DNA of 64,000 nucleotides from an uncultured delta proteobacterium (GCA_963817385.1 CAWFOM010000005.1:194596-258595); one strand, 5' to 3'; counted from the stretch's first letter, positions 1 to 27,693 are shown. Made by a program: numbers and translations. Notes: generated from the sequence alone by a model not told the origin.

Positions 1-650
1 TCCTGCTGTTCGACGAGGTGGTCGGGCACATGCGGGAACGGTTGGCGATACCCGAACCCGGAGAGATCCCTCTGGTGGAGCGGCTCAAGACGTCGGTGCG
101 GGAAGGGGTGGATTACCATCCCTACCTGCCCCGGGAGGACGGCCGTTTGCCGATGTCGGATTTCGGCGGGATACACCGGTACAACGTGACGGGCCTGTTC
201 CATGACATGTGGGGATTCCCCTCGGACAATCCGCAGGTCGTACACGACCTCCTGCGCCACCTGGTGGATAAGATCGAGACCCACGTCGATGAAGTGACGC
301 GCTACAAGGAATATTTTGTCGACGACGCGGAGATGCTCTTGATCTCGTACGGTTCATCGGCGCGTTCGGCGCTGCACGTGGTGATGGATCGCCGCCAGCA
401 CGGGGAGAGGATCGGGCTCCTGGAGCTCCAGACGCTGTGGCCCTTCCCCGCGAACCTGGTGCGGGAGAAGGCGGGGAACGCCCGCTACGTGGTGGTGGTG
501 GAGATGAACATGGGTCAGATTCTGCAGTCGGTCAAGCTGGCTGTGGATAAGCCGGAGCGGATCTTCCTGGCAAATCGTGTGGACGGGGTATTGATTACGC
601 CGGCGGATATACGCAACATTCTGCGGCTGATCCAGGGCAAAGGAGTCTGA
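1..650 (+). CDS. korA: 2-oxoacid (probably 2-oxoglutarate):ferredoxin oxidoreductase alpha subunit, C-terminal part; 5' end lies outside the window
   Basis: The reading frame is open to the window start. The C-terminal region (VVVVEMNMGQILQSVKLAV...) looks like alpha subunits of 2-oxoacid:ferredoxin oxidoreductases. The beta subunit gene follows after 1 nt, then gamma and sucCD. Confidence 0.85.
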   Translation, partial: LLFDEVVGHMRERLAIPEPGEIPLVERLKTSVREGVDYHPYLPREDGRLPMSDFGGIHRYNVTGLFHDMWGFPSDNPQVVHDLLRHLVDKIETHVDEVTRYKEYFVDDAEMLLISYGSSARSALHVVMDRRQHGERIGLLELQTLWPFPANLVREKAGNARYVVVVEMNMGQILQSVKLAVDKPERIFLANRVDGVLITPADIRNILRLIQGKGV

Positions 651-651
651 C

Positions 652-1455
652 ATGGCCGTAAAGGAATACATCCGGGAGAAGTTCTTTCCGCACATCTGGT
701 GCCCGGGCTGCGGACACGGGATCGTGCTCAACGGCCTCCTGCACGCCGTCGAGAACATGGGGTTGAAGAAGAACGACCTCGTGATGGTGTCGGGGATCGG
801 CTGTTCGTCCCGGATTGCCGGATACCTGGATTTCCACACGCTGCACACGATCCACGGGCGGGCGCTGGCGTTCGCCATCGGGGTGAAGATGAGCCGTCCG
901 GAGCTGACGCTCCTGGTGCCGATGGGCGACGGAGATGCATTGTCGATCGGGGGAAACCACTTCATCCATGCGTGCCGGCGGAATATCGATATGACGGCGA
1001 TCGTGATGAACAACCGGGTGTACGGGATGACGGGCGGCCAGTATTCGCCGCTTTCGGGATACGGCACCATGGCGACGACGGCCCCGTATACGAACATCGA
1101 TCAGGAGTTTGACATCGTCAGCATGGCAACGGCTTCCGGGGCGACGTTCGTGGCGCGCACCACGGCGTATCACGTCCAGCAGATGACCGATGTCCTGGAG
1201 GAGGCGATCCGGCACAAGGGATTTTCGGTCGTGGAGGTGATGTCGCCGTGCCCGACCTACTTCGGCAGGAAGAACAAGGAGGGAAGCGCGGTGGACATGA
1301 TGGAGAAGCTCAAGACCACGACCACGCCGATCGGCTCCAAGGCAAAACAGGAGGACCCTTCGCTGATCGAGCGGGGGGTGTTCGTGAAGAAGGAGATGCC
1401 GGAGTACTGTGACGAATATCAGAAGATCATCGAGCGGGCGATGAAGGGGAAGTGA
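652..1455 (+). CDS. korB: 2-oxoacid:ferredoxin oxidoreductase beta subunit (TPP-binding)
   Basis: 267 aa. It has the N-terminal WCPGCGHG motif and the GDGD...GGNH thiamine-PP motif (PMGDGDALSIGGNH) typical of beta subunits. Confidence 0.92.
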   Translation: MAVKEYIREKFFPHIWCPGCGHGIVLNGLLHAVENMGLKKNDLVMVSGIGCSSRIAGYLDFHTLHTIHGRALAFAIGVKMSRPELTLLVPMGDGDALSIGGNHFIHACRRNIDMTAIVMNNRVYGMTGGQYSPLSGYGTMATTAPYTNIDQEFDIVSMATASGATFVARTTAYHVQQMTDVLEEAIRHKGFSVVEVMSPCPTYFGRKNKEGSAVDMMEKLKTTTTPIGSKAKQEDPSLIERGVFVKKEMPEYCDEYQKIIERAMKGK

Positions 1456-1458
1456 GCT

Positions 1459-2004
1459 ATGGAGCGATGCAGGATGGTGTTTTCCGGTTCGGGCGGGCAG
1501 GGGGTGATCACGGCGGCGATCATTCTGGCCGAGGCCGCCGTACTGCATGAAAATCTCGTTGCCGTCCAGTCCCAGTCGTACGGTCCGGAGGCGCGAGGCG
1601 GCGCCACCCGCGCCGATGTCATCATCGCCGAATCCCCGGTCTACTTTCCGAAGGTGATCCAGCCCAATGTCCTGGTGTGTCTGACGCAGCAGGCGTATAC
1701 GAATTATTATTCCATCCTCCGTCCGGGCGGTCTGTTTGTCACCGACAGCCATTACGTCAAGCTGGGCAAGAAAGTGGATGCGCGCCAGGTGGAGCTGCCG
1801 ATGTTCGAGACGGTAATGGCAAAGGTCGGCCGGCCGATCGTTTTCAACATCTGCATGCTCGGAGCGGTGATCGGATTGACGAAGCTGGTCCGGCCCGATT
1901 CCATCATGAAGGTGCTCGAAGCCCAGATTCACCCCGGTTTTCTCGAGATGAACCGGCAGGCCCTCGATATCGGCATGAAACTGGTTGAAGGAATCGGCGA
2001 TTGA
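1459..2004 (+). CDS. korC: 2-oxoacid:ferredoxin oxidoreductase gamma subunit
   Basis: 181 aa with the GSGGQG motif near the N-terminus. It starts 3 nt after korB. Confidence 0.9.
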   Translation: MERCRMVFSGSGGQGVITAAIILAEAAVLHENLVAVQSQSYGPEARGGATRADVIIAESPVYFPKVIQPNVLVCLTQQAYTNYYSILRPGGLFVTDSHYVKLGKKVDARQVELPMFETVMAKVGRPIVFNICMLGAVIGLTKLVRPDSIMKVLEAQIHPGFLEMNRQALDIGMKLVEGIGD

Positions 2005-2256
2005 ATGCGTGTTCATGCATATGAGCCCACCCTTCCCCGGTCAGAATCACCGGGCTTTCATTGGGGGAAGCAACCATGCGCATTCCCGGAACAAATCAGT
2101 ATCTGATGCCCTCAAACAAGTACATTCCCCCCATTTCCATCCCCACCCGAACCCACCCCCATCGAAGAGGAGGAGCGTTCGGACATGGTGCGAAACCGTC
2201 AGAATATCGCCGATACTTGATATTCGGAAGGTGCGCAGGGACCACGGAGGTACGAC

Positions 2257-3420
2257 ATGAAGATCCATGAATACCAGGCAAAGAAACTGTTGCGGGATTA
2301 CGGGATTCCGGTGCCCCGCGGCGAGGTCGCCGCTACCCCGGAGAAGGCGCGCAGGCTCGCGGCTAAGCTGGCAGGACGGACCGTCGTCAAGGCGCAGATC
2401 CACGCCGGCGGCCGGGGGAGGGGCGGCGGCGTGAAACCGGCCGCTTCGCCGGATGAGGCCACTGCGGCCGCCCGGTCGATCCTCGGGATGCAGTTGGTGA
2501 CCCACCAGACGGGTCCGGAGGGGAAGAAGGTGCGCACGGTTCTCGTGGAGGAGGCGTCTGCTCCGCAACGGGAGTTGTACCTGAGCCTGGTAGTGGACCG
2601 ATCGCGGGGGAAGGAGTGCGTGGTGTTCATGGCCTCGGAGGCGGGCGGCATGGACATCGAGCAGGTGGCGGCAACAACCCCGGAGAAGATCGTCAAGTGC
2701 GCGATCCATCCTGCCGTGGGGTTCAGCCCGTTCCAGGCGCGCAAGCTCTCCGTCGGCCTGGGGCTGGACCCGGAACAGGGCCGGGAGTTCGCCCAGATCG
2801 CCCGGAACCTGTACCGGCTCTTCCTGGAGAAGGACTGCTCGCTGGTGGAGATCAACCCGCTGGCGATTACGGAAGCGGGCCGCCTGCTGGCGCTTGACAC
2901 GAAGATCACCTTCGATGATGACGGCCTGTACCGCCATCCCGAGATCCGTGAGCTGCGCGACCCGGACGAAGAGGAGCCGCTGGAGGTCGCCGCCAGGAGC
3001 GCCTCCGTGAACTACATCAAGCTGGACGGAAACGTCGGCTGCATGGTCAACGGGGCGGGACTGGCGATGACGACGATGGATTTGATCAAGATGGCGGGGG
3101 GCGAACCGGCGAACTTTCTCGACGTGGGAGGCAGCGCATCGCCGGAACAGATCGAGAAGGCCTTTCGCATCCTGACATCCGATCCGAGCGTGAAGTGCAT
3201 CCTCGTCAACATCTTCGGCGGGGTGCTGCGGTGCGACCGCGTCTCCGCCGGACTGATCCAGGCGGCGGGAAAGATCGATATGAAGCTGCCGATGGTCGTG
3301 CGGCTCCAGGGGACGAACGTGGAGGAGGGGCGCCGGATGCTCAAGGAGTCCGGGCTCAGCTTTACGGTGGCGGACGGCCTGTACGAGGCGGCCCAGAAGG
3401 CCGTTGCCCTGCTGGGATAG
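2257..3420 (+). CDS. sucC: Succinyl-CoA synthetase (ADP-forming) beta subunit
   Basis: 387 aa with the MKIHEYQAKKLLRDYGIPVP ATP-grasp N-terminus and a full-length SucC-like sequence. A GGAGG RBS lies upstream. Confidence 0.97.
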   Translation: MKIHEYQAKKLLRDYGIPVPRGEVAATPEKARRLAAKLAGRTVVKAQIHAGGRGRGGGVKPAASPDEATAAARSILGMQLVTHQTGPEGKKVRTVLVEEASAPQRELYLSLVVDRSRGKECVVFMASEAGGMDIEQVAATTPEKIVKCAIHPAVGFSPFQARKLSVGLGLDPEQGREFAQIARNLYRLFLEKDCSLVEINPLAITEAGRLLALDTKITFDDDGLYRHPEIRELRDPDEEEPLEVAARSASVNYIKLDGNVGCMVNGAGLAMTTMDLIKMAGGEPANFLDVGGSASPEQIEKAFRILTSDPSVKCILVNIFGGVLRCDRVSAGLIQAAGKIDMKLPMVVRLQGTNVEEGRRMLKESGLSFTVADGLYEAAQKAVALLG

Positions 3421-3457
3421 GTAGTCGCCGTGCGCCAGGGGGCTTCACCGCGGCGCT

Positions 3458-3505
3458 GGACATTTTCCGATCCTGCCCGGCGGCAGGATACCCCGGAAAA
3501 TCTCC
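3458..3505. repeat. REP/MITE-like imperfect palindromic element in the sucC-sucD spacer
   Basis: GGACATTTTCCG-ATCCTGCC-cggc-GGCAGGAT-acc-CCGGAAAATCTCC, followed by CAATGCGCC. The same arms recur at 46091-46211. Confidence 0.6.
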
Positions 3506-3619
3506 AATGCGCCGCCTGCTGAAGCCCCACTGCCACCCGGCTGAAGGTGAAAGTAGTAAAACTACTGAAATGAGTCTTAAGCGGCGGGAAGGTGATTCCC
3601 CAAGTGCTCAAAGGAGATT

Positions 3620-4504
3620 ATGATCATGGCCATATTGCTGGATCGCAATGCGCGCATCGTCATCCAGGGGATCACGGGCTCGGAGGGGAGCTTTCACACC
3701 CGGGAATCGGTGAAGATGGGGACCGCGGTCGTGGCCGGGGTCACGCCCGGCAAGGGCGGAACGGATCTGGACGGCATCCCCGTCTACAACCGGGTCATCG
3801 ATGCGGTGGAAAAGCACGGCGCCAACGTTTCGGGGATCTACACGCCGGCGGCGTTTGCACCCGATGCGATCTTTGAGGCGATCGAGGCGGGGATCGGGCT
3901 CATCGTCTGCATGACGGAGGGTATCCCCGTGCTCGAGATGATCAAGGTCAAGCAGGCGCTCCACGGTTCGGGCAGCCGGCTGATCGGCGCGAACTGTCCG
4001 GGGATCACGACCCCCGGGGTGGGAAAGGTCGGCTTCATGCCCAACTTCATCCACCGGGAGGGGAACGTGGGCGTCGTCTCGCGCAGCGGAACCCTCACCT
4101 ACGAGATGATCTGGCAGCTGACCACCCTGGGGATCGGCCAGTCCACTTCGGTCGGGATCGGCGGGGATCCGATCGCGGGGTCCGGTTTCATCGATATCCT
4201 GGAGCTCTACCAGCAGGATCCGCAGACGGAGGCGATCGTGATGATCGGCGAGATCGGGGGAACGGCGGAAGAGGAGGCGGCGGAGTTCATCCGGAGGCGG
4301 GTGACAAAGCCGGTGGTCTCTTTCATCGCCGGACGGTCTGCCCCCCCGGGGCGGAGGATGGGCCACGCCGGGGCAATCATCTCGGGCGGGAAGGGTACGG
4401 CCGAGGAGAAATTCACGGCCCTGGAGAGGGCCGGCGTCATTGTGGAAAAGAATCCCGCCGAGATCGGCAGTCGCGTGCAGGAGATCCTGAAGGCACGGAA
4501 ATAG
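3620..4504 (+). CDS. sucD: Succinyl-CoA synthetase alpha subunit (start may be the second ATG at 3626)
   Basis: 294 aa with [14 protein letters not shown] and the catalytic His loop [10 protein letters not shown]. An AAGGAG RBS lies at 3611-3616. Confidence 0.97.
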
Positions 4505-4624: not shown

Positions 4625-5563
4625 TCAGTCGATCTTGATAAAATCGGCTGCCGGCGGCGGACAGGTAAAGAATTCGGACCGTAAAATTCCCGCCCATTGC
4701 GCGTAGATTTTCAGGACCGACGTCGCGTCTTCCTGGTCCCACCCTCGGTACTGGGCCTGGAGCAACAACTGCTGATAGAGTCCTCCCACGGGCAGCATCA
4801 CGCCCAACTGCTTTGCCCGCTCGACGATGAGCCCCATATCCTTGACGGCCACGCTGACCTGTCCCTTGGGAGTAAACCGGCCGGCGAGCATATCCTTTCC
4901 CCTGGCCATGATCAGATCGCTCGAGGCCGCCCCGGTGGTGATGACATCGAGCATGACGGCTGGGTCTAAACCGGCCTTCATGCCCAGCGCCAGCCCTTCG
5001 ACAGCCGCCGCCTCATTGAGATAGAGGATGAGGTTGACGACCAGTTTGAGCATCGCCCCGTCGCCGTGTTTTCCCGCATACACGGTTTTTTTGCCGATCC
5101 GCTCCAGGACCGGCTTGACCTTGTTGAATATCGACTTTTTCCCCCCGGCCATGAAGACCATGTTGCCGACCCGCGCCTGGGCGGAGGAGCCCGAGATGGG
5201 GATATCCATCCAGTCGATTCCCTTGGCGGCCATGGTCTTTGCCATGGCTATCGTTTCCTCCGGAGGGGAGGTGCTCATATCGACGATAATCTGACCCTTG
5301 CGGACGCCCTTCAATATACCGGCCTTTCCCGCGACGACCTCCTGGAGAATCTTCCAGTTCGCCAGGGAGAGGATGATGAGATCCGCGTCTTTGACGGCCT
5401 GTTTGGGAGACGCCGCCGGCTTCATCCCCTGCGGGACGAGATCGGCCATCTGTTTTTTGACAATATCATACCCCGTAACGGAATATCCCGCCTTGAGGAG
5501 CAAGGCGGAAATGGGCGTCCCCATCATTCCCAGACCGATCACCGCAATCCTTTTGATCCCCAT
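4625..5563 (-). CDS. NAD(P)-dependent 3-hydroxyisobutyrate/6-phosphogluconate dehydrogenase-family oxidoreductase
   Basis: 312 aa with the Rossmann motif IAVIGLGMMGTPIS and overall HIBADH-like architecture. It is a paralog of the genes at 46295 and 47187. Confidence 0.85.
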   Translation of the reverse strand: MGIKRIAVIGLGMMGTPISALLLKAGYSVTGYDIVKKQMADLVPQGMKPAASPKQAVKDADLIILSLANWKILQEVVAGKAGILKGVRKGQIIVDMSTSPPEETIAMAKTMAAKGIDWMDIPISGSSAQARVGNMVFMAGGKKSIFNKVKPVLERIGKKTVYAGKHGDGAMLKLVVNLILYLNEAAAVEGLALGMKAGLDPAVMLDVITTGAASSDLIMARGKDMLAGRFTPKGQVSVAVKDMGLIVERAKQLGVMLPVGGLYQQLLLQAQYRGWDQEDATSVLKIYAQWAGILRSEFFTCPPPAADFIKID

Positions 5564-5862: not shown

Positions 5863-6171
5863 ATGTTCATCTGGCTTTTTCACCGTATCAGCGGTGCAAC
5901 CCTGATCGTCCTTTTCAGCATCAAGATCCTCACCAGCTATTTTCTCTTCACCAAGGATAAAAAGCCCGACTGGGCCCTCAGCCTGCACCGGAACCCTGTC
6001 CTGGATATCCTGATCCTGATCCTTTTCACCTTTCACAGCCTCTACGGTCTGCGGACCGTAGCGATCGACCTCGGTTACCGGAAAGAAAAGCAACTGTTCT
6101 GGGTCTCGAACATAGCCGCCGCCCTCATCTCCGCGGCATTAATTTTTCTCTACGTAAAGGCTCAATCGTAA
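5863..6171 (+). CDS. sdhC: Succinate dehydrogenase/fumarate reductase membrane anchor, cytochrome b-type, single 3-TM subunit
   Basis: About 102 aa from the ATG at 5863 (G-rich RBS just upstream). It has three hydrophobic helices and the HRISG and FHSLYGLR His motifs reminiscent of SdhC/SdhD heme ligands. Its stop overlaps the sdhA start (TAATG). Confidence 0.65.
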   Translation: MFIWLFHRISGATLIVLFSIKILTSYFLFTKDKKPDWALSLHRNPVLDILILILFTFHSLYGLRTVAIDLGYRKEKQLFWVSNIAAALISAALIFLYVKAQS

Positions 6172-7881
6172 TGATTGCTCACGATATCCTCATCGTCGGC
6201 GGCGGTTTGACAGGGCTTCGGGCGGCCGTCGGCCTGTGCGACCGGTTCAACGTGGGGCTGATCTGCCAAGGTCTACCCGACCCGATCCCACTCCATTGCG
6301 GCGCAGGGAGGCCTCAACGCGGCCCTTACCAACAACCCCGAGAGCCGGGACGATTCCTGGGAAAAACACACCTTCGACACCGTTAAAGGGAGCGATTATC
6401 TTGCCGACCAGGATGCCGTGGAGATCATGTGCAAAGAGGGCATCAAGATCGTCTACGAGATGGAACATTGGGGATGCCCGTTCAGCCGGTTTCCCGACGG
6501 CTCCATCGCCCAGCGCCCCTTCGGCGGCGCCGGCTATCCCCGGACCTGCTACTCCGCGGATATCACCGGCCATGTGCTCCTCAACACCCTCTATGAGCGG
6601 GCCGTGGCAAAAGGGGTCAAGATCTATCCGGAATGGTTCGTCACCTCGCTGTGCATCGAAGAGGGCCTCTGTCACGGCGTCATCGCGCTGGATATTCAAA
6701 AAGGCACACTCATCCCGGTCCGGGCAAAGGAGACCTTCTTCGGCACCGGGGGCTACGGGCGGGTCTTCCAGCAATCCACCAACGCCCTGATCAACACGGG
6801 CGGCGGCATCGGGATGGCCTACAAGGCGGGCGTTCCCCTCAAGGACATGGAGTTCGTCCAGTTCCATCCCACCACGCTCATCGGCACCAACATCCTCATG
6901 TCGGAGGCCTGCCGGGGCGAGGGCGCATACCTGGTCAACAACCAGGGGGAGCGCTTCATGCAGCGCTACGTCCCCACCGCGATGGAGCTGGCGCCGCGGG
7001 ATATCGTCTCCCGGTGCATCCAGACGGAGATCAATGAGGGGCGCGGATTCGACCACCCCCTGGGGAAGCATGTCCATCTCGACCTGCGGCACCTGGGGGC
7101 ACAGAAGATCCTGGAGCGGCTTCCCGGCATCCGGAACATCAGCATCGATTTTCTCGGAATCGATCCCATCACCGACCCGATCCCCATCCAGCCCGGCCAG
7201 CACTACTCCATGGGGGGCATCGACGTCAACGCGCGGTGCGCCTCGGAAGTCCGCGGCTTCTACGCCGGCGGGGAATGCTCCTGCGTCAGCGTCCACGGCG
7301 CCAACCGCCTGGGCGGCAATTCACTCCTGGAAACCATCGTCTTCGGAAAACTGGCGGCGCAGGCGATCGACGAGGATATGACGACGAGCCCGCTGCCCCT
7401 CCCGGATGAAAAACCCCTTCTCCGGCTGAAGGACAAAATAGACGCCAAGATCCGGCGGCTGGCGGAGCCCGGCCGTCAGGAGAAGTACTACCGGATCCAC
7501 GCGGAGCTGGGCGCCACGATGACCGAAAAGGTGGGGGTCTTCCGGACCCGCACGGAGCTGGATGAGGCGCTGCAGGTCCTCATCGGCCTCAAGGAGCGTT
7601 ACCGGAAGGTCGGCATCTCCTCGGCGGTCCGGTACATGAATTACGAACTGATCAATGCCCTGGAGCAGGAGTATATGCTGGAAGTGGCCCATACGATCAT
7701 CCTGGGGGCCATCCTTCGGGAGGAGAGCCGTGGCGCCCACTTCCGGCTGGATTTCAAAACCCGGAACGACCAGGACTGGCTGAAGCACACCATTGCCCGG
7801 ATCGGCCCCGACGGTGAACCGGCGATCTCTTTCAAGGAGGTGACGATGACCCGGTATACGCCCATGGAGAGAAAATATTGA
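6171..7881 (+). pseudogene. sdhA: Succinate dehydrogenase/fumarate reductase flavoprotein subunit, interrupted by a single-base frameshift at about 6264-6265 (a sequencing error is possible)
   Basis: The N-terminus [19 protein letters not shown]...GLI is in frame 0. The conserved continuation (S/A)KVYPTRSHSIAAQGGLNAAL...DAVEIM runs in frame +1 from 6262 and joins the 487-aa ORF 6418-7881. Removing one base from ATCTGCCAAG restores I-S-K-V-Y. Confidence 0.9.
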
Positions 7882-8050
7882 TGACTTCGGAAAAAGCCCA
7901 TAGGCCGCGTTGCGCTTCCCCCCTCGTCGTTGCGGCGTACGAAGCAGTACGCCTCACTCCTCAGGGGTCGCGCGCCTTGCCTCCAGGTCTTTTTGCGAAG
8001 CCATCTGCCGCTGCCGGCTGTCTTGCGAAATTATTGGGGAGGCAGGAATA

Positions 8051-8794
8051 TTGATCAAGGCGAGTGCATACACCTTCAAGATTCTCCGGTATGACGCGCA
8101 GGACCCGGGAAGCGAACCCCGTTTTGCGACCTACCGGATCAGTGTCATCCCGGGACTCACGGTGTTGGCGGTCCTGAACCGGATCCGCGATGAGATCGAC
8201 GGGACGCTCGCTTTCAGGTCCTCCTGCCGGTCCGCCGTCTGCGGCTCCTGCGGTATGGTGATCAACGGGAAGATCGATCTCGCCTGCCGGACCCAGGTCG
8301 CCGCCTTCGGTACCGATACGATCATCCTGGAACCCCTGCCCAATCTCGAGGTGATCCGGGACCTGGTCGTCGACCTGACGCCGTTCTGGCGGATGTACGA
8401 GAAGATCCAGCCCTATCTGATCCGGAAGAGCCCCGCCCCCGAAAAGGAGATCCTCCAGAGCGAGGCGGAGCGTCAGCGGATCGACCAGTTCGTCAACTGT
8501 ATCCTCTGCGCCTGCTGCTACGGCGCCTGTCCGGTCCTCGCGAGAGAACCGGACTATGTGGGCCCGGCAGCGGCGGCCAAGCTGGAGCGGTTCGTCCTGG
8601 ATTCGCGGGATGAGCGGTCCGGCGAAGCCCTGGGGATCGTCAACGATGAGAGGGGCGTCTGGGCCTGCGACACGGTATTTCGCTGCATCGACGCCTGCCC
8701 GAAGGATGTGCGGCCCACCGATGCCATCGTGGGTCTTCGGAAAGCGATCGTGAAAAACCGTTTTCAAAAGATGCTGGGGAAAAGCGAACCATGA
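8051..8794 (+). CDS. sdhB: Succinate dehydrogenase/fumarate reductase iron-sulfur subunit (TTG start inferred)
   Basis: All three Cys clusters are present: CRSAVCGSCGMVINGKIDLAC, CILCACCYGACP and CDTVFRCIDACP. There is no in-frame ATG before the conserved YTFKILRY. The TTG at 8051 lies 8 nt after a GGGGAGG RBS. Confidence 0.85.
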   Translation: MIKASAYTFKILRYDAQDPGSEPRFATYRISVIPGLTVLAVLNRIRDEIDGTLAFRSSCRSAVCGSCGMVINGKIDLACRTQVAAFGTDTIILEPLPNLEVIRDLVVDLTPFWRMYEKIQPYLIRKSPAPEKEILQSEAERQRIDQFVNCILCACCYGACPVLAREPDYVGPAAAAKLERFVLDSRDERSGEALGIVNDERGVWACDTVFRCIDACPKDVRPTDAIVGLRKAIVKNRFQKMLGKSEP

Positions 8795-9261
8795 AACTTG
8801 ACTATTCCCTCATCACGAGGAGGACCTTTCTCAATACGCTCTTCGGCGGCTGGCTCGTCGCCTTCTTCTCCGGGACGATCTTCGCCCTGATGCGATTCGC
8901 CTTCCCCACCCTGGGCAAGGAGCCGGACTTCGTCGTCCTCAACCGGAGCGATTTTCTGGATCTGAAGAACAATTCGATCAAACGATTCCCCTGGGGCGGT
9001 ACGGTCGGGTTCTATTTCAAAAAGGCCGACGGCAGCATCCTGGCGCTCAAGGGCGTCTGCAGCCACATGGAATGCAACGTGGACTACAAACCGGCGGAGA
9101 AAAAGTTTTACTGCCCCTGCCATCAGGGATGGTTCGACGAAAACGGCAAGAACATCGCCGGGCCGCCCCCCAAACCACTCGAGATCTTCGTGATCACGGA
9201 GGAGGGTGAAAAGCTGATCATCGCCAGGAAGGGGGTCAAGGTTGAACTGCCCAAGGCTTAA
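8791..9261 (+). CDS. Rieske [2Fe-2S] protein of a cytochrome bc/b6f-type complex, with a twin-arginine signal
   Basis: 156 aa with a TRRTFL Tat-like motif plus a TM helix. The Rieske boxes CSHMEC and CPCHQG are present. Its ATG overlaps the sdhB stop (ATGA). Confidence 0.88.
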   Translation: MKLDYSLITRRTFLNTLFGGWLVAFFSGTIFALMRFAFPTLGKEPDFVVLNRSDFLDLKNNSIKRFPWGGTVGFYFKKADGSILALKGVCSHMECNVDYKPAEKKFYCPCHQGWFDENGKNIAGPPPKPLEIFVITEEGEKLIIARKGVKVELPKA

Positions 9262-10306
9262 AGACTGGCTCGAAGAGCGCTACGATCTGGAAGGGATGAA
9301 GAAGCTGGCGAAGAGCAAGCTCGTCCCGGAACACCGCTACGACCTCTGGTACTACACCGGCGGGATCACGCTCTTTCTGTTCATCGTCCAGTTTATCACG
9401 GGGATGCTGATGGCCCTGTACTATGTCCCCCATATCGATTTTGCCTACAAGAGCATCATCGAGATCGTCACCAAACTGAACATGGGCTGGTTCTTCCGCT
9501 CCCTCCATCACTGGGGGGCGCAGCTCGCCATCGTCTTTCTGTTCATCCACCTCTTCGGTACGCTGCTCTTGAAGTCCTACCGCAAGCCGCGGGAGTTCGT
9601 TTGGATTACGGGATTCATCCTCCTGGGCATCTCGATCTTCTTCGGGCTGAGCGGCTACCTGCTTCTCTGGGATGAGCGCGCCTTTGCCGCCGTCCGGGTG
9701 GCGACGGGCGGGGCCGGCGCCTTTCCGGTTATCGGGTGGTTCATCAAGGCCTTTCTCCGGGGGAGCATGGATGTGACCGGCGACACCCTCCTGCGCTTCT
9801 ACGCCTTCCATGTGGCCATACTGCCGATCATCACCCTGGGCCTGATCGGGCTGCACATTCTGCTGGTGCAGTATCACGGGATGAGCCTCCCCCTTTCCCT
9901 GCAGAAGGAGAAACGGCGGGAAATCCCCTTTTTCCCGAATGCCTTTTACCGGGATCTGGCGATCTGGCTGGTCGTCACGGGGGTTCTCGTGACCCTCACG
10001 GTGTACTTGCCGCCGGAGATCGGCGTGAAGGCCGATCCCCTCGCCCCCCCGCCGGAAAACGTCAAGCCCGAATGGTATTTTCTCTTCCTGATGCAGACCC
10101 TGAAGCTCTTCCCCGGCTCCATCCTGGGGATGAACGGGGAGACCATCGCCATCGTGATCGTCTCCGCTGCGATCTTCTTTTTCTTTCTCATCCCCTTTTT
10201 CGACCTAAAATCATCCCGGGGCGAGAAGAGCCCGCTCTTCACCTGGATCGGCGTGATCTATCTTCTCTACTTCCTCACGATGACGGCGGTGGGTTTTCTG
10301 AGTTAA
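9242..10306 (+). CDS. Cytochrome b (b6 plus subunit IV-like fusion) of a Rieske/cyt b complex; TTG start inferred
   Basis: 354 aa. The N-terminus KDWLEERYDL...YYTGGITL is cyt b6-like. Two His pairs are present, in HHWGAQLAIVFLFIHLF and FYAFHVAILPIITLGLIGLH. It overlaps the end of the Rieske gene. Confidence 0.88.
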   Translation: MNCPRLKDWLEERYDLEGMKKLAKSKLVPEHRYDLWYYTGGITLFLFIVQFITGMLMALYYVPHIDFAYKSIIEIVTKLNMGWFFRSLHHWGAQLAIVFLFIHLFGTLLLKSYRKPREFVWITGFILLGISIFFGLSGYLLLWDERAFAAVRVATGGAGAFPVIGWFIKAFLRGSMDVTGDTLLRFYAFHVAILPIITLGLIGLHILLVQYHGMSLPLSLQKEKRREIPFFPNAFYRDLAIWLVVTGVLVTLTVYLPPEIGVKADPLAPPPENVKPEWYFLFLMQTLKLFPGSILGMNGETIAIVIVSAAIFFFFLIPFFDLKSSRGEKSPLFTWIGVIYLLYFLTMTAVGFLS

Positions 10307-10315
10307 GGAGCTTCT

Positions 10316-10642
10316 ATGCGAGGGATCAGTATCGTCAGAGCGTTTCTCAGCCGGTTTTCTTTTACTCGGTCCGCGCGGCTGATGACGGCGGCGGTCCCGG
10401 CATTCCTGATGAACCCCGCCGTCTCCCCGGCAGCGGAAAAAGTGGCCGAAAAGGTGGCGGAAAAGATCGCCGTCTTTCCCACGGCACCCTACTACCAGTA
10501 CATCGCTTATGAATGCCTGGCCGTCTTCTGGATCGCGATCCTCGGCCTGCTCGTCATCATCCGTATGAAACTTCGGGAAATCGAACGTATCCAGGCACTG
10601 GGCGTGGAGCGGGATGACCAGGACGCCCCCTTGCTGCAGTAA
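10316..10642 (+). CDS. Hypothetical small membrane protein, last gene of the sdh-Rieske-cyt b operon
   Basis: 108 aa. An AAGGAG RBS lies 5 nt upstream and the gene starts 9 nt after cyt b. It has an EKVAEKVAEK low-complexity stretch followed by one TM helix (CLAVFWIAILGLLVIIRM). It has no CxxCH motif. Confidence 0.55.
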   Translation: MRGISIVRAFLSRFSFTRSARLMTAAVPAFLMNPAVSPAAEKVAEKVAEKIAVFPTAPYYQYIAYECLAVFWIAILGLLVIIRMKLREIERIQALGVERDDQDAPLLQ

Positions 10643-10763: not shown

Positions 10764-11336
10764 TCAATACCATCCCATCAATCGGGAACGCAGATATTTC
10801 CGGGCGTCCTTATTGCCCATTTGAGCGGACACCTTGATGTTATCGGTGCCTTTGTAACCCTCTCCGGGCATGCCCCTCTGGATAAGGCCGAGAAAGAAAC
10901 GGGCTTCCACATGCTTTGGGTCCATAGCGACAACGTCGCTAAAATCCATCACGGCCAGATGGTATTCTTCCTCTCTTGCGAAGGCGATACCGCGATTGAA
11001 GCGAAACATCGCCTCATCGGGGTCGATGCCGATCGCCCGATTGTAATCCTGGATCGCCAAGCGGTAGTTTCCCAATTCGCTATAGGCGACACCCCTGTTG
11101 TTATACGCATGCGCGGAGTTGGGGGTCAGCTCGATAACCCGGCTGAAGGCCTCGACAGCCTTACGATAGTTGCCTATTTCTCCCATAAAACGTCCGCGGT
11201 CGAACCATTCCTGGGCGCTCAGCGCCGCATCCCGGCCTGCCGCCGAAGCAGGACAGATCGGTAAGCACAGATACGCAAAGACTAAGGTAAAAAACGAAAT
11301 CCGGATGAGTCTGATACGTAGCGCCAGTGTCTTCAT
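10764..11336 (-). CDS. Secreted/lipoprotein-like tetratricopeptide (TPR) repeat protein
   Basis: It has the signal-like N-terminus MKTLALRIRLIRISFFTLVFAYLCL and several TPR units (GNYRKAVEAFSRVIELTPNSAHAYNNRGVAY...). The start is taken at the internal ATG at 11336. Confidence 0.8.
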   Translation of the reverse strand: MKTLALRIRLIRISFFTLVFAYLCLPICPASAAGRDAALSAQEWFDRGRFMGEIGNYRKAVEAFSRVIELTPNSAHAYNNRGVAYSELGNYRLAIQDYNRAIGIDPDEAMFRFNRGIAFAREEEYHLAVMDFSDVVAMDPKHVEARFFLGLIQRGMPGEGYKGTDNIKVSAQMGNKDARKYLRSRLMGWY

Positions 11337-11560
11337 GAATGCCCGCCATGGGAATCCCGGCAGCACGGCATTATGTCCGTCCGGTCGATCGGCCCGGAGA
11401 TCCGCCGTACCCTGAGAATACTCATTTATTATCGGCAGAATTTCCGAAATACTTTATCCACCCCCGGTGGTTGTACCGTTAATCAAGGACATTAATAACT
11501 CTTGACAAACCTGTGGATTCCGATGCAGTCTGAAATACATAGTTAGGATGAGAATCATTC

Positions 11561-21791: not shown

Positions 21792-21938
21792 ATGCAGGTT
21801 CCGGCGCACCATACGGGGATGAAATCTCGATAAAATATCCTTGACACTCACAGCAGCCCATCGTAAACTCCCCGCGTGGAAAAGTAGGTCCTTATCAATA
21901 ACAACGTTCCAATGAAATGCAATCAAAGGAGGGAAACG

Positions 21939-22982
21939 ATGTTGAAGACAAGACCGAGTCACCAGTTCGCGGCATTCCTGGCGGCCCTTGCCGCCGTCTT
22001 CGCTTTTTCGGCGATCAATCCTGCTCATTCTGCAGAGCGCAAGTCGATCCGCTGGGCAACGTCCAGTACGGGCTCTTACGGCTATAAGGTCGCGGCCCAG
22101 ATGACCAAGGTGTTGGAGGACGCTCTCGGCGGCGAATATACCGTCACGGTCAATCCCTATCCATCGACCACCGCCGCCATGAAGGCGACGATGGACGGCA
22201 ATGGGGAGATCGGCTACACGGCCGACGTCGGGATGACCGAAGTCTATGAGGGCACCGGCGGCTTCAAGGACTACAAGGCCGCCAAATCGAATATGGTCCA
22301 CACCTGGTATGCATACCCGATGGAGTCGTTCATGGCCGTGTACGCGCCGAAAGCCGGCCAATTCAAGTCCTGGGGCGACTTCAGCGGCAAGCCGGTCTTC
22401 TTCACCCCCGCCGGCTTCATGAACTGGCTCAATTTCCAGCGCATCTTCAAGGCGCTCGGCTATCAGTTCAAACACGTCCAGATCGGCGAGGCGGCCCAGG
22501 GCGACGCGCTCCAGGGCGGCACCATTGTCGGCGCCGTCGCCTACACGACCGCCGGCCGGTCGCTCGCGTCCTACTGGCGCGAGACCGAGCTGCGCATCGA
22601 CATCAAGGTGATCAACCCGAGCCCGGAAGAGGTCAAGAAACTGACCGCGGCGGGCCTCGCCCCCGTGGAGATCGACCCGGCGAAGGCATTCAGCAAGGAC
22701 GTAGGCGTGAAGACGGTCCTGGGCGTGCCGATCCTCTTCGGCTACAACGTTCGCGCGGACATGCCCGAGGATGTCGTCTACAAGATGCTGGGCAGTTTCT
22801 ATAAGGAGCGTGACAACCTGGCCAAGGCCGATCCGGGTTTCGGACCCATGGCGCGCGACTTCGTCGGCATGCAGGTGAAAGGCATCAATGCCAATCCGAC
22901 CATTCCGGTGCATGCGGGGCTGGTGAAGTTCCTCAAAGATCATAAGGCGTGGAACGACAAGTGGAAGATCGCCGGCAAGTGA
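21939..22982 (+). CDS. TAXI-family TRAP transporter solute-binding protein
   Basis: It has a signal peptide (FAAFLAALAAVFAFSAINPAHSA) and a TAXI-like core (RWATSSTGSYGYKVAAQM...). An AAAGGAGGG RBS precedes the ATG at 21939. Confidence 0.88.
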   Translation: MLKTRPSHQFAAFLAALAAVFAFSAINPAHSAERKSIRWATSSTGSYGYKVAAQMTKVLEDALGGEYTVTVNPYPSTTAAMKATMDGNGEIGYTADVGMTEVYEGTGGFKDYKAAKSNMVHTWYAYPMESFMAVYAPKAGQFKSWGDFSGKPVFFTPAGFMNWLNFQRIFKALGYQFKHVQIGEAAQGDALQGGTIVGAVAYTTAGRSLASYWRETELRIDIKVINPSPEEVKKLTAAGLAPVEIDPAKAFSKDVGVKTVLGVPILFGYNVRADMPEDVVYKMLGSFYKERDNLAKADPGFGPMARDFVGMQVKGINANPTIPVHAGLVKFLKDHKAWNDKWKIAGK

Positions 22983-23254
22983 TCGGACAACGGGCTTGCC
23001 GGGGGAGGGGAACCTGCGCCGCGACGGCGCCGGCTCCCGCCCCCGCACCTTACCAATCGCATGCAATTCGAAGAATCAGCGAAGCGAAGATAATACCATG
23101 GTCCGCGTGCGGCCGGGATCGGGTGCACGCAATAACGACGGATGGGAAAGTTCGTCTGTGCATTGTTTTGCTCTTTGCTGAGCATCGTCACTTATCGTAT
23201 CGGCGCTGTGGGCCGGAAGGCCGCAGACGCTTCGGGCCATAAAGGGGGGAACCC

Positions 23255-25216: not shown

Positions 25217-25358
25217 GCGGGCCCTGGTCGGGTGTTGAAACACCCTGCTAAGATCAAACCATCAGTGCTCCAGGGAGCAAGGGGGACGGCCGCACCTTCC
25301 GGGTCTCTCCGATACGGCACACGGGAAGGTAGGAACAGTCAACTACGGGGAAGACGCG

Positions 25359-27041: not shown

Positions 27042-27042
27042 T

Positions 27043-27693
27043 ATGCGGCTCACCTTGAACGTCACCCGTTTCGACCCGCAAGCCGACGACAAACCCTCCT
27101 GCCGAACATACACCGTCGACTGGGAACGGCACGAAACCGTGCTGGATCTGCTCATGAGAGCGAGGCTTCAGGACCCCTCCCTGGCCTTCAGGCGCTCCTG
27201 CCGCAGCGGCATCTGCGGCTCCTGCGGTATGCACATCGGGGGCCGTTCCCGGCTTGCCTGCCAGACGCTGGTCCGGGAGGTGGCCGGCGACGGGGGCGGC
27301 CTGAGCATAACGCCGCTGCCGGGCTTCCGGCAGCTCAAAGATCTGGTGGTGGACATGGATCCATTCTTCGATGCGCTCAAGAGGGTGCTCCCCTGGGTCA
27401 TCACGATTCCGAACCATAACGGGCTGATTTCACCGGAGGATTCGGGGCTGATCGAGCCTCCCGCCACCTGCATCCTGTGCGGCGTCTGCGACGCCGAGGT
27501 GCATCCAGGCGGCAGGATTACCCCCGCCGCCCTGGTGAAAAACGTGCGGCTGGCGGTCGATCCCCGCGACGCCCTGGGGGGAGAGAGAATGAAGATCACC
27601 GGACTGTCACAAGAAGGACTGCACACGTTTAGGGAACTGCTCGCATCGGTCTGCCCCAAGGGGATCAAACTTCCTCCCGTGGCTCTGGAATAA
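27043..27693 (+). CDS. SdhB/FrdB-like iron-sulfur subunit lacking the [3Fe-4S] ligand set
   Basis: 216 aa with the 2Fe-2S motif CRSGICGSCGMHIGGRSRLAC. CILCGVC is followed by DAEVHP (no fourth Cys-Pro). Only one distal CP (SVCPKG) is present. The gene starts 1 nt after the flavoprotein stop. Confidence 0.85.
   Translation: MRLTLNVTRFDPQADDKPSCRTYTVDWERHETVLDLLMRARLQDPSLAFRRSCRSGICGSCGMHIGGRSRLACQTLVREVAGDGGGLSITPLPGFRQLKDLVVDMDPFFDALKRVLPWVITIPNHNGLISPEDSGLIEPPATCILCGVCDAEVHPGGRITPAALVKNVRLAVDPRDALGGERMKITGLSQEGLHTFRELLASVCPKGIKLPPVALE

What the first reader, a model, noticed from the sequence alone, without database searches (positions are those of the whole stretch)
5863..10642. Succinate dehydrogenase genes translationally coupled to a Rieske/cytochrome b module that has no cytochrome c partner
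Six co-directional genes are packed with overlapping or near-overlapping boundaries. The sdhC-like stop overlaps the sdhA start (TAATG). The sdhB stop overlaps the Rieske start (ATGA at 8791-8794). The Rieske gene overlaps the cyt b start. A 108-aa membrane protein follows cyt b after 9 nt with its own AAGGAG RBS. The Rieske protein has a Tat motif plus CSHMEC/CPCH. Cyt b has both His pairs. None of the six products contains a CxxCH heme-c motif. Only one small 3-TM anchor is present, rather than an SdhC+SdhD pair or a 5-TM anchor. Established knowledge: SQR/QFR enzymes reduce or oxidise quinone, and Rieske/cyt b complexes oxidise quinol and normally pass electrons to a c-type cytochrome or equivalent. 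Inference: a quinone-reducing and a quinol-oxidising module are expressed as one unit. This could be a dedicated succinate-to-menaquinone-to-Rieske/b route or a supercomplex. Such an arrangement would be relevant to the energetically uphill succinate oxidation step in anaerobes and syntrophs.
Basis: partly seen in the sequence, partly recalled or inferred. Interest (0 to 1): 0.7.

Follow-up and report, generated by a model that had tools for sequence, protein, structure and literature searches.

The report
Succinate dehydrogenase operon-fused to cytochrome-c-less Rieske/cytochrome b
In a large group of anaerobic, mostly syntrophic bacteria the genes for succinate dehydrogenase are welded to those of a Rieske/cytochrome b complex that has lost its usual cytochrome c partner, which suggests an undescribed combined respiratory enzyme.

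Summary
Window 5863-10642 encodes sdhC (single 3-helix anchor), sdhA, sdhB, a Tat-type Rieske protein, a 7-helix cytochrome b and a small membrane protein. The stop/start overlaps are as described. Three corrections apply: a 169-nt spacer separates sdhA and sdhB, cytochrome b starts at TTG 9242, and the sdhA "frameshift" is one extra G at 6265.

The linkage is strongly conserved. In 80 species-level genomes of Syntrophales and Syntrophorhabdales, 71 of 71 loci with enough flank have sdhB directly upstream of Rieske. A second clade with 44% identical cytochrome b has sdhC-sdhB-Rieske-cytb without sdhA.

Sister lineages almost always carry a multihaem cytochrome c after cytochrome b (48 of 49). 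The SDH-linked clade never does (0 of 68).

The anchor keeps the proximal-haem histidine but has an invariant lysine where class A anchors have the distal-haem histidine. orf108 matches the eighth helix that clade-2 cytochrome b carries fused.

Best reading: one functional unit, probably a supercomplex. In it the dihaem cytochrome b and outer quinone site give SDH the transmembrane path needed for proton-motive-force-driven succinate oxidation. Physical association, direction and electron path are inferred. I found no prior description.

The parts
5863..6171 (+). sdhC-like membrane anchor, 102 aa, 3 helices; the only anchor gene
   Evidence: - Family match: Pfam Sdh_cyt 35 bits (cutoff 25.8), TIGR02970 E 2.8e-9.
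- Structure: AF2 pLDDT 91, helices at 2-28, 45-69 and 75-101. The best PDB fold is M. smegmatis Sdh2 SdhC, 6LUM, TM 0.77.
- Invariant across both clades: H7, R8, S10, G11, K21, H42, D48, H58, G62, R64, D69.
- K21 aligns with His C47, the distal-haem ligand of 6LUM. H58 aligns with His C87, the proximal-haem ligand.
6171..7881 (+). sdhA flavoprotein; reading frame broken by one extra G at 6265; 569 aa once repaired
   Evidence: - TIGR01812 752.8 bits (cutoff 567.3) on the repaired protein.
- The insertion is absent from 7 relatives.
- The N-terminus starts directly with the FAD fold (MIAHDILIVGGG), so there is no export signal.
7882..8050 (+). 169-nt sdhA-sdhB spacer, absent from most relatives
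   Evidence: - Read.
- Similar spacers occur in L004 (166 nt) and L076 (159 nt); 51 loci instead overlap by 4 nt.
- It folds at -71 kcal/mol, z -2.2.
8051..8794 (+). sdhB iron-sulfur subunit, 247 aa, TTG start behind GGGGAGG
   Evidence: - NF004616 280 bits (cutoff 228); Fer2_3 plus Fer4 domains.
- All three cluster motifs are present in the sequence.
8791..9261 (+). Rieske iron-sulfur protein, 156 aa, twin-arginine signal/anchor; start overlaps the sdhB stop (ATGA)
   Evidence: - PF00355 E 4e-12. The best PDB matches are b6f Rieske proteins.
- R10, R11, C90, H92, C95, C108, C110, H111 and G113 are invariant in 75 sequences.
- Box II reads CPCHQGWF where b6f has CPCHGSQY.
9242..10306 (+). cytochrome b, 354 aa, b6 plus subunit IV fused, 7 helices; TTG start 20 nt inside the Rieske gene
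   Evidence: - PF00033 E 9e-44 and PF00032.
- H89, H103, H190, H205 and PEWY are invariant.
- The b6 Cys35 position holds Tyr.
- The -20 nt overlap is found in 68 loci.
10316..10642 (+). orf108: signal peptide plus a single-helix subunit of about 60 aa; likely the split-off eighth helix of cytochrome b
   Evidence: - No Pfam, NCBIfam or PDB match.
- Conserved in 70 loci, mainly the helix and the KLREIER tail.
- hhalign 93%, E 3e-7, to the C-terminal extension of clade-2 cytochrome b.
18..4504 (+). context: korA (C-terminal part), korB, korG (2-oxoacid:ferredoxin oxidoreductase), sucC, sucD upstream on the same strand
   Evidence: - ORFs.
- The same kor-sucCD-sdhCAB-Rieske-cytb order occurs in L082, with Pfam annotation.
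- sucCD lies upstream in many Syntrophales loci.

Best explanation
The six genes encode one functional respiratory unit. Its first part is a complex II made of SdhA, SdhB and a single 3-helix haem-b anchor, which probably acts as an SdhC homodimer. Its second part is a cytochrome-c-less, menaquinol-type Rieske/cytochrome b complex. That complex consists of a Tat-exported Rieske protein predicted to be low-potential, a 7-helix dihaem cytochrome b with an intact Qo motif, and orf108 as its detached eighth helix.

In this lineage the multihaem cytochrome c that follows cytochrome b in sister lineages was lost. sdhC and sdhB (and usually sdhA) sit directly in front of the Rieske gene.

Proposed mechanism (inferred):
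1. The anchor has lost the distal haem that menaquinone-dependent class A and B enzymes use to carry electrons to an outer-face quinone site.
2. Cytochrome b (haems bH and bL) and the Rieske/Qo site supply that path and that site within a supercomplex.
3. Electrons from succinate cross the membrane with the help of the membrane potential. Menaquinone is reduced with protons taken from the outside.
4. This is a reverse redox loop. It makes the uphill oxidation of succinate (about +30 mV) by (methyl)menaquinone (about -74 mV or lower) possible. The same machine could run backwards as a charge-separating quinol:fumarate reductase.

Shown: gene identities, cofactor ligands, conserved translational coupling, lineage-specific absence of cytochrome c, and replacement of the distal-haem ligand.

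Inferred: physical association, homodimeric anchor, electron path and direction.

My estimates: about 0.8 that SDH and Rieske/cytochrome b are an obligately co-expressed, functionally coupled unit. About 0.4 that they form a supercomplex with direct electron exchange of the kind described.
For: 1. Conserved linkage. 88 relatives were found among species-level genomes, and 80 loci were examined. All are Syntrophales or Syntrophorhabdales metagenome-assembled genomes apart from one record labelled Ignavibacteriales, probably mis-binned. 60 carry all six genes in order. 71 of 71 loci with enough flank have sdhB directly upstream of Rieske.
2. Conserved coupling. sdhB/Rieske overlap by 4 or 11 nt in 68 loci. 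Rieske/cytochrome b overlap by 20 nt in 68 loci.
3. Deeper conservation. The clade with cytochrome b about 44% identical (P0126, P0272, P0276) has sdhC-sdhB-Rieske-cytb without sdhA nearby. L087 (P0130) has an sdhB fragment directly upstream of Rieske.
4. Replacement of cytochrome c. 48 of 49 outgroup loci carry a cytochrome c gene with at least four CxxCH motifs, nine in most, right after or fused to cytochrome b. No outgroup locus has sdh genes next to Rieske. 0 of 68 clade-1 loci have any ORF with three or more CxxCH within about 8 kb.
5. Anchor. It is closest to class A SdhC (6LUM). The proximal-haem histidine is kept (H58 aligns with His C87). The distal-haem histidine position (His C47) holds an invariant lysine. 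An invariant outer-face loop and H42 suggest a role on the outer side.
6. Rieske centre. Gly and Phe occupy the two potential-tuning positions. The same pattern is used to predict a potential below +200 mV in the cytochrome-c-less haloarchaeal Nar-linked complexes (PMC3509893).
7. All cofactor ligands are invariant, so the proteins are under selection.
8. orf108 corresponds to the fused eighth helix of clade-2 cytochrome b.
9. Reverse redox loops that drive (methyl)menaquinone reduction are documented in Syntrophus (bioRxiv 10.64898/2026.08.18.745454).
Against: - No direct evidence of physical contact exists. Operon fusion can reflect co-regulation alone.
- The Rieske cluster sits on the outer face and SdhAB on the inner face. 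The proposed route for the Rieske electron therefore needs a carrier that has not been identified. H42 and K21 are only candidates.
- Reducing quinone at a Qo site is the reverse of its normal reaction.
- A periplasmic acceptor encoded elsewhere cannot be excluded, because whole genomes could not be searched.
- The kor-sucCD context fits a reductive, biosynthetic fumarate reductase role equally well.
- The quick NJ tree does not resolve whether the SDH-linked clades share a single origin.
- The hhalign match for orf108 covers a transmembrane helix, where composition inflates scores.
Confidence: 0.5

Rival explanations
1. Complexes II and III are ordinary and separate, and are merely co-transcribed. 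SDH reduces menaquinone at its inner-face site. The Rieske/cytochrome b complex oxidises menaquinol in a normal Q cycle and hands electrons to a periplasmic carrier encoded elsewhere, such as a soluble cytochrome c or a copper protein. The shared operon only balances expression or favours quinol channelling.
For: - All Q-cycle elements are intact: Qo PEWY, four haem histidines, a conserved His near the inner-face site, and a mobile Tat-exported Rieske protein.
- The SdhC residues of the inner-face quinone site (HRxSG, D69) are invariant.
- Rieske genes in haloarchaea can sit apart from their partners.
- Only about 8 kb on each side of the cluster, and 64 kb of the window, were searched for cytochrome c.
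Against: - Sister clusters keep their multihaem c next to cytochrome b in 48 of 49 cases. Relocating it in every one of about 70 genomes while sdh genes move in would be an odd coincidence.
- Clade 2 keeps sdhC-sdhB with Rieske/cytb but not sdhA. That looks like assembly of a membrane module rather than pathway co-regulation.
- Strict anaerobes offer no obvious high-potential acceptor.
- Succinate to menaquinone at the inner face without energy input is uphill by about 100 mV.
Confidence: 0.28
2. The unit works mainly as a menaquinol:fumarate reductase in a reductive TCA branch: oxaloacetate to fumarate, succinate, succinyl-CoA and then 2-oxoglutarate. The Rieske/cytochrome b module oxidises menaquinol at the outer face and feeds fumarate reduction. 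This gives syntrophs an energy-conserving sink for menaquinol made by acyl-CoA oxidation.
For: - The cluster follows korABG and sucCD on the same strand in the window and in many Syntrophales loci. That set can run reductively to 2-oxoglutarate.
- Complex II enzymes are reversible (established knowledge).
- Menaquinol disposal is the bottleneck in these organisms.
Against: - SdhA carries Gln in RSHSIAAQGG. Gong et al. read that residue as indicating SDH function, but it is not decisive.
- Releasing 2 H+ outside and taking up 2 H+ inside per fumarate costs more than the roughly 100 mV span provides at normal proton-motive force (my calculation from standard potentials).
- Syntrophorhabdales loci lack the kor and suc neighbours.
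- An anabolic flux hardly explains such a conserved dedicated machine.
Confidence: 0.15
3. The wiring is Mitchell's original Q cycle. SDH docks at the inner-face (centre N) site of cytochrome b and supplies the second electron for quinone reduction there, while haem bH supplies the first. The Rieske centre still passes electrons to an external acceptor.
For: - Historically, Mitchell proposed SDH as donor 'd' to centre N (PMC5600118).
- SdhB, the proximal haem and the centre N site all lie on the inner face, so the topology is compatible.
- The anchor retains only the proximal-haem ligand.
Against: - It still needs an unidentified acceptor for the Rieske centre.
- It has no precedent in any characterised complex.
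- Nothing in the sequence specifically supports docking at centre N.
Confidence: 0.05
4. The operon is dead in this genome because sdhA is frameshifted.
For: One extra G at 6265 breaks the frame after codon 31.
Against: - It is the only lesion. The remaining 538 codons are open and highly conserved.
- The other five genes are intact with invariant ligands.
- Several related long-read assemblies show scattered frameshifts (L011, L075), which is typical of assembly error.
Confidence: 0.02

Closest known systems
Class A complex II (dihaem succinate:menaquinone oxidoreductase, M. smegmatis Sdh2, PDB 6LUM)
   Same: - SdhA and SdhB are canonical.
- The anchor is the closest sequence and fold relative.
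- The proximal-haem histidine and the HRxSG motif are kept.
- A small single-helix extra subunit exists in both (SdhF there, orf108 here).
- Succinate oxidation by menaquinone is thought to need a transmembrane electron path.
   Different: - There is only one anchor gene instead of SdhC plus SdhD.
- The distal-haem histidine is replaced by an invariant lysine.
- No SdhF similarity was found.
- The genes are welded to Rieske/cytochrome b.
Haloarchaeal Rieske/cytochrome b-nitrate reductase (Nar) gene cluster
   Same: - A Rieske/cytochrome b module sits in one cluster with another oxidoreductase.
- The cluster has no cytochrome c gene.
- The Rieske protein has Gly and Phe at the potential-tuning positions and is predicted to be low-potential (PMC3509893).
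   Different: - There the partner enzyme faces the outside, like the Rieske centre, and a soluble cytochrome b is proposed as shuttle.
- Here SdhA has no export signal and faces the cytoplasm, so electrons would have to cross the membrane.
- The two cytochrome b lineages are unrelated.
Rieske/cytochrome b complexes with a multihaem cytochrome c (Acidobacteria, delta-proteobacteria and relatives; 'green clade'-like, 7-helix unsplit cytochrome b)
   Same: - They are the nearest cytochrome b relatives at 41-56% identity.
- Shared features: Rieske-then-cytb gene order, a 14-residue spacing between the helix D histidines, the PEWY motif and seven helices.
   Different: - They carry a multihaem c, nine CxxCH in most, after or fused to cytochrome b in 48 of 49 loci.
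- They have no sdh neighbours.
- The window's clade has the opposite pattern.
Class B dihaem SQR/QFR (Bacillus subtilis, Wolinella succinogenes) and the Syntrophus ETF:methylmenaquinone oxidoreductase reverse redox loop
   Same: The proposed working principle is the same. Electrons from a relatively high-potential donor cross the membrane through two b haems to an outer-face quinone site, driven by proton-motive force (established knowledge for B. subtilis).
   Different: - The proteins are entirely different.
- Here the dihaem wire would be a Rieske-dependent cytochrome b. This has not been shown for any enzyme.
Class F complex II (M. smegmatis Sdh1) with a membrane-embedded Rieske-type cluster
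   Same: A complex II that uses a Rieske-type [2Fe-2S] centre in quinone chemistry and has a single anchor gene (PMC8054011).
   Different: - There the cluster is part of a 6-helix SdhC inside the membrane.
- Here it is a separate Tat-exported bc-type Rieske protein paired with cytochrome b.
- The two are not homologous.

Membership tests
Complex II superfamily (SQR/QFR) | Flavoprotein with the FAD fold and the histidine for covalent FAD (RSHS motif) | tested here: met
   TIGR01812 752.8 bits against a cutoff of 567.3; RSHSIAAQGG is present and conserved.
Complex II superfamily (SQR/QFR) | Iron-sulfur subunit with [2Fe-2S], [4Fe-4S] and [3Fe-4S] motifs | tested here: met
   NF004616 280 bits against a cutoff of 228. 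CRSAVCGSCG, CILCACCYGACP and CDTVFRCIDACP are present.
Complex II superfamily (SQR/QFR) | Membrane anchor of a described class A-F (two 3-helix subunits, one 5-helix, one 6-helix, or the amphipathic type) | tested here: not met
   There is a single 3-helix Sdh_cyt gene. No second anchor gene occurs in the window or in 80 relatives. The classes are as listed in PMC10238741.
Class A complex II (dihaem) | Histidine in anchor helix I that ligates the distal haem (His C47 in 6LUM) | tested here: not met
   That position aligns with Lys21, which is invariant in both clades.
Class A complex II (dihaem) | Histidine in anchor helix II that ligates the proximal haem (His C87 in 6LUM) | tested here: met
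   That position aligns with the invariant His58.
Rieske/cytochrome b (bc-type) complexes | Rieske protein with CxHxxC and CxCH boxes and a twin-arginine N-terminal anchor | tested here: met
   PF00355. C90, H92, C95, C108, C110, H111 and R10-R11 are invariant in 75 sequences.
Rieske/cytochrome b (bc-type) complexes | Cytochrome b with two histidine pairs and a Qo PEWY motif | tested here: met
   H89, H103, H190 and H205 are invariant and PEWY nearly so (one Y279F) in 69 sequences. PF00033 and PF00032 match.
Rieske/cytochrome b (bc-type) complexes | A high-potential acceptor subunit (cytochrome c1, f, dihaem or multihaem c, or a copper protein) encoded with the complex | tested here: not met
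   No CxxCH occurs in the six products. 0 of 68 related loci have an ORF with three or more CxxCH within about 8 kb, against 48 of 49 in outgroups. A carrier encoded elsewhere was not testable.
b6f / 'green clade' type cytochrome b | Cysteine that binds haem ci (Cys35 of b6) and a split b6/subunit IV | tested here: not met
   The Cys35 position holds Tyr. b6 and subunit IV are fused in one 354-aa protein.
Physical complex II-Rieske/cytochrome b supercomplex | Co-purification or a structural interface between the subunits | not testable with these tools
   Only monomer structure prediction was available. Genetic linkage is the sole evidence.

The most novel reading that the evidence does not exclude
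This is a new class of complex II. Its quinone-reactive membrane module is a Rieske/cytochrome b complex. Succinate/fumarate takes the place of cytochrome c as the redox partner of the Rieske/b module. The Qo site runs as a two-branch (confurcating or bifurcating) menaquinone site that couples succinate oxidation to proton-motive force. That would be a natural fusion of respiratory complexes II and III, and a living relative of Mitchell's original Q-cycle idea.
Probability: 0.3. Interest if true: 0.88.

Novelty: new variant of a known kind. Interest (0 to 1): 0.72.

Why it matters
Succinate oxidation is the hardest thermodynamic step in syntrophic propionate oxidation (PMC10308238). The same step is expected to matter in alkane degradation by fumarate addition, where fumarate must be regenerated. 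How bacteria that use menaquinone, or the even lower-potential methylmenaquinone, pay for that step is only understood for dihaem anchors.

This cluster is found in dozens of Syntrophales (including Smithella) and Syntrophorhabdales species. These organisms are common in digesters, aquifers, peat and sediments. The cluster suggests a second solution, built from a Rieske/cytochrome b complex that gave up its cytochrome c.

If confirmed, three things would follow:
- A new class of complex II would be added.
- It would be shown that a Qo site can be recruited to a cytoplasmic dehydrogenase.
- There would be a bacterial case of a dedicated complex II-III assembly. Complex II is otherwise conspicuously absent from respiratory megacomplexes (PMC10238741).

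The finding also corrects annotation. orf108 is a subunit, the cytochrome b start is a TTG, and these 'cytochrome b6' genes are not photosynthetic or cytochrome-c-reducing.

Tried and rejected
- **Literature.** Ten full-text searches combined Rieske, cytochrome b or bc, succinate dehydrogenase or fumarate reductase, Syntrophus, Smithella, Syntrophorhabdus, sdhB and sdhC. None returned a paper describing this linkage. Subscription-only papers are not covered.
- **Expression data.** The supplement search of the digester metatranscriptome paper gave nothing usable.
- **orf108.** It has no Pfam, NCBIfam or PDB match, including no match to SdhF.
- **Source genome.** The exact-protein look-up failed, because the source annotates the ATG-started 336-aa form. 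Cluster look-up showed only that a 97% identical protein is labelled Syntrophales.
- **Metagenome scan.** The scan aimed at clade 2 returned no close clade-2 members, only outgroups. These became a useful control.
- **Short contigs.** Context look-ups for P0123, P0124 and P0139 hit contigs too short to be informative.
- **Phylogeny.** The quick NJ tree could not settle whether the SDH-linked clades are monophyletic.
- **Rejected ideas.**
  - A periplasm-facing SDH, like the epsilon-proteobacterial methylmenaquinol:fumarate reductase, is ruled out because SdhA has no Tat signal and the MFR profile matches only from position 47.
  - Haem ci in cytochrome b is ruled out because the Cys is missing.
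  - A dead operon is ruled out.
  - The promoter and terminator scans gave only weak consensus hits and no convincing internal terminator.

Full report
**1. What is in the window**

Positions 5863-10642 carry six co-directional genes.

| Gene | Coordinates | Size | Evidence |
|---|---|---|---|
| sdhC-like anchor | 5863-6171 | 102 aa | Pfam Sdh_cyt, 35 bits, cutoff 25.8 |
| sdhA | 6171-7881 | 569 aa repaired | TIGR01812, 752.8 bits, cutoff 567 |
| sdhB | 8051-8794 | 247 aa | NF004616, 280 bits, cutoff 228 |
| Rieske | 8791-9261 | 156 aa | PF00355 |
| cytochrome b | 9242-10306 | 354 aa | PF00033 plus PF00032; b6 and subunit IV fused |
| orf108 | 10316-10642 | 108 aa | no family match |

They are TAATG at sdhC/sdhA, ATGA at sdhB/Rieske, a 20-nt Rieske/cytochrome b overlap, and a 9-nt gap with AAGGAG before orf108.

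Three corrections apply:
- sdhB most likely starts at TTG 8051 behind GGGGAGG. This leaves a 169-nt spacer after sdhA.
- Cytochrome b starts at TTG 9242. The source annotation uses an internal ATG, giving 336 aa (P0003).
- The sdhA frameshift is a single extra G at 6265 that none of 7 relatives has. The rest of the gene is open and conserved, so I treat it as an assembly error.

No product contains CxxCH. No ORF of 150 aa or more in the 64 kb has two or more such motifs.

Upstream on the same strand lie korA, korB, korG, sucC and sucD. A reverse-strand dehydrogenase gene is inserted before sdhC.

**2. Conservation of the linkage**

A scan of one genome per species with the cytochrome b found 88 relatives. 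The 80 loci kept come from Syntrophales (Syntrophaceae, Syntrophus and Smithella-like) and Syntrophorhabdales genomes. One record labelled Ignavibacteriales is probably mis-binned. Cytochrome b identity ranges from 56 to 92%.

tblastn with all six proteins shows the same order wherever the contig allows:
- 60 of 80 loci have all six genes in order.
- 71 of 71 loci with at least 1.3 kb upstream of cytochrome b have sdhB directly before Rieske.

The coupling itself is conserved:
- sdhB/Rieske overlap by 4 or 11 nt in 68 loci.
- Rieske/cytochrome b overlap by 20 nt in 68 loci.
- sdhA/sdhB overlap by 4 nt in 51 loci.

All cofactor ligands are invariant across 69-75 sequences. These are the Rieske Cys and His residues, the twin arginines and four cytochrome b histidines; PEWY is nearly so, with one Y279F.

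**3. The linkage goes deeper than this clade**

In a library clustered at 50% identity, the next cytochrome b relatives are only 41-47% identical.

One group (P0126, P0272, P0276; 437-441 aa) sits in loci with sdhC (101 aa)-sdhB-Rieske-cytb. These loci have no sdhA nearby and no cytochrome c. A further relative (P0130) has an sdhB fragment directly upstream of Rieske.

So the constant core is the membrane-proximal set: SdhC, SdhB, Rieske and cytochrome b. That is easier to explain by joint assembly than by pathway co-regulation.

**4. Cytochrome c was lost, not merely unlinked**

- Other near relatives are fused to multihaem c domains (P0125, P0127, P0135).
- Others are followed by a multihaem c gene (P0128; an acidobacterial locus).
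- In 80 metagenome loci with cytochrome b 44-56% identical to clade 2, none has sdh genes next to Rieske.
- Of those loci, 48 of 49 with enough downstream sequence carry a cytochrome c with at least four CxxCH, nine in most, right after or fused to cytochrome b.
- In the window's clade, 0 of 68 loci have any ORF with three or more CxxCH within about 8 kb. Fisher p is about 3e-32.

A quick NJ tree places the SDH-linked groups outside the multihaem groups but does not resolve whether they share one origin.

**5. orf108**

The family has a variable signal-peptide-like N-terminus. It is followed by a conserved stretch of about 60 residues: a short outer segment, one helix, and a KLREIER tail.

Clade-2 cytochrome b proteins have a C-terminal extension with one more helix in the same topology. 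Profile-profile comparison aligns it with orf108 (93%, E 3e-7, 34 columns).

The AF2 model of P0276 places that helix with high confidence. The model aligns over about 420-430 columns with 8-helix bc1 cytochrome b.

I therefore read orf108 as a split-off eighth helix of cytochrome b and not as a redox partner. It has no conserved Cys, His or Met. A role like the single-helix SdhF of M. smegmatis Sdh2 cannot be excluded, but no similarity was found.

**6. The anchor**

- The closest solved relative by sequence and by fold is SdhC of the class A dihaem enzyme M. smegmatis Sdh2. The AF2 model has pLDDT 91.
- In that structure the proximal haem is ligated by His C87 and His D107. The distal haem is ligated by His C47 and His D65 (PMC7447783).
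- In the alignment, His C87 corresponds to the invariant His58 here. His C47 corresponds to Lys21, which is invariant in both SDH-linked clades.
- No second anchor gene exists. The simplest model is an SdhC homodimer holding one proximal haem and no distal haem. This is an inference.
- The outer-face loop, H42, R43 and D48 are unusually conserved for an anchor. This hints at a function on the outer side.

This architecture fits none of the described classes A-F.

**7. The Rieske/cytochrome b module**

- The Rieske protein has the disulfide cysteines.
- It has Gly and Phe where high-potential proteins have Ser and Tyr. The same pattern is used to predict a potential below +200 mV in the cytochrome-c-less haloarchaeal Nar-linked complexes (PMC3509893).
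- Cytochrome b has the 14-residue histidine spacing in helix D.
- It lacks the cysteine for haem ci.

**8. How it most likely works**

Succinate (about +30 mV) cannot reduce menaquinone (about -74 mV) without energy input. Syntrophus uses methylmenaquinone, which has a lower potential than menaquinone, so the step is harder still.

Class A and B enzymes solve this with two haems that carry electrons to an outer-face quinone site. Protons are then taken from outside, which makes a reverse redox loop. This is established knowledge for B. subtilis, and the same principle is shown for the Syntrophus ETF:methylmenaquinone oxidoreductase.

The anchor here has lost the distal-haem ligand. Yet it is invariably encoded with a dihaem cytochrome b that has an outer-face quinone site and no acceptor of its own.

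My best explanation is that the two form one unit. In it, cytochrome b and the Rieske/Qo site provide the transmembrane path and the outer quinone site for SDH.

My estimate from standard potentials:
- Two charges per succinate (about 300 meV at 150 mV) suffice to drive the 208 meV uphill reaction.
- The reverse reaction, an electrogenic fumarate reductase, would be unfavourable under standard conditions.
- A full Q cycle plus return of the electrons would be far too costly in the fumarate-reducing direction.

The weak point is the route of the electron that must pass through the outer-face Rieske centre. No carrier for it has been identified.

I put about 0.8 on an obligately coupled unit. 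I put about 0.4 on a supercomplex with direct electron exchange.

**9. Rivals**

- Separate complexes with an acceptor encoded elsewhere: 0.28.
- Mainly a fumarate reductase for a reductive branch, suggested by the kor-sucCD context in Syntrophales but not in Syntrophorhabdales: 0.15.
- Mitchell's original Q-cycle wiring, with SDH donating to centre N: 0.05.
- A dead operon: 0.02.

**10. Comparison with what is known, and novelty**

Rieske/cytochrome b modules recruited to other enzymes are known. The haloarchaeal Nar cluster is documented. Anammox complexes are another example, from my own knowledge.

Complex II is diverse, with classes A-F. Class F even contains a membrane Rieske-type cluster.

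I found no description of sdh genes welded to a cytochrome-c-less Rieske/cytochrome b complex in ten full-text searches. [quoted passage not shown]

I classify the finding as a new variant of known kinds: a new combination with a new anchor architecture. It would become a new class of complex II if the physical coupling is confirmed. Interest: 0.72.

Noticed in passing
window 6265: A single extra G breaks sdhA after codon 31. It is absent from 7 related loci and sits in a non-homopolymer context (atctGccaag). It is probably an assembly error.
   Followed up: yes
window 7882-8050: A 169-nt GC-rich spacer lies between sdhA and sdhB and folds stably (-71 kcal/mol, z -2.2). Spacers of similar length occur in L004 (166 nt) and L076 (159 nt), whereas most relatives overlap these genes by 4 nt. 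It could be an inserted element or a regulatory RNA.
   Followed up: partly
window 21912-27693: A second sdhA/sdhB-like pair with no membrane anchor follows a TAXI-type TRAP transporter (receptor 21912-22982, fused permease 23255-25216). sdhA2 (25359-27041) scores 707 bits on TIGR01812. sdhB2 (27043-27693) seems to lack most cysteines of the third Fe-S cluster. A second sdhA also lies 6-7 kb downstream of the cluster in L002, L003 and L009.
   Followed up: partly
window 18-4504 and 4625-5563: korA, korB, korG, sucC and sucD precede the cluster on the same strand, as in L082. A reverse-strand 2-hydroxy-3-oxopropionate reductase/HIBADH-like gene (4625-5563) is inserted between sucD and sdhC in this genome only. 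In relatives such as L001, sucD is followed almost directly by sdhC.
   Followed up: partly
window 9242-9298: The public annotation of the identical protein (P0003, 336 aa) starts cytochrome b at an internal ATG. The TTG start, 20 nt inside the Rieske gene, restores the conserved N-terminal WLEER region and is conserved in 68 loci.
   Followed up: yes
L014 (PEWR01000120.1): A locus with the full cluster at 82-84% identity is labelled Ignavibacteriales. It is probably a mis-binned Syntrophales contig.
   Followed up: no
L088-L090 (GCA_964409935.1 and others): Clade-2 loci share a conserved neighbourhood: cobalamin biosynthesis genes, a long sigma-70 factor of about 555 aa, and phosphofructokinase. 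Two of them also carry a HAD hydrolase next to sdhC-sdhB-Rieske-cytb. The organism was not identified, and where its sdhA lies is unknown.
   Followed up: no
window 10764-11366 (-): A TPR-repeat protein with a signal-peptide-like N-terminus lies convergent just downstream of orf108. A 61% identical copy is in the same position in L002.
   Followed up: no
window 9242-10306 (NCBIfam hit): The N-terminal half of cytochrome b scores 170 bits (cutoff 290) on NF040969 'selenite/tellurite reduction operon b-type cytochrome ExtP'. This may be another case of a b6-like cytochrome recruited to a non-cytochrome-c reductase system.
   Followed up: no
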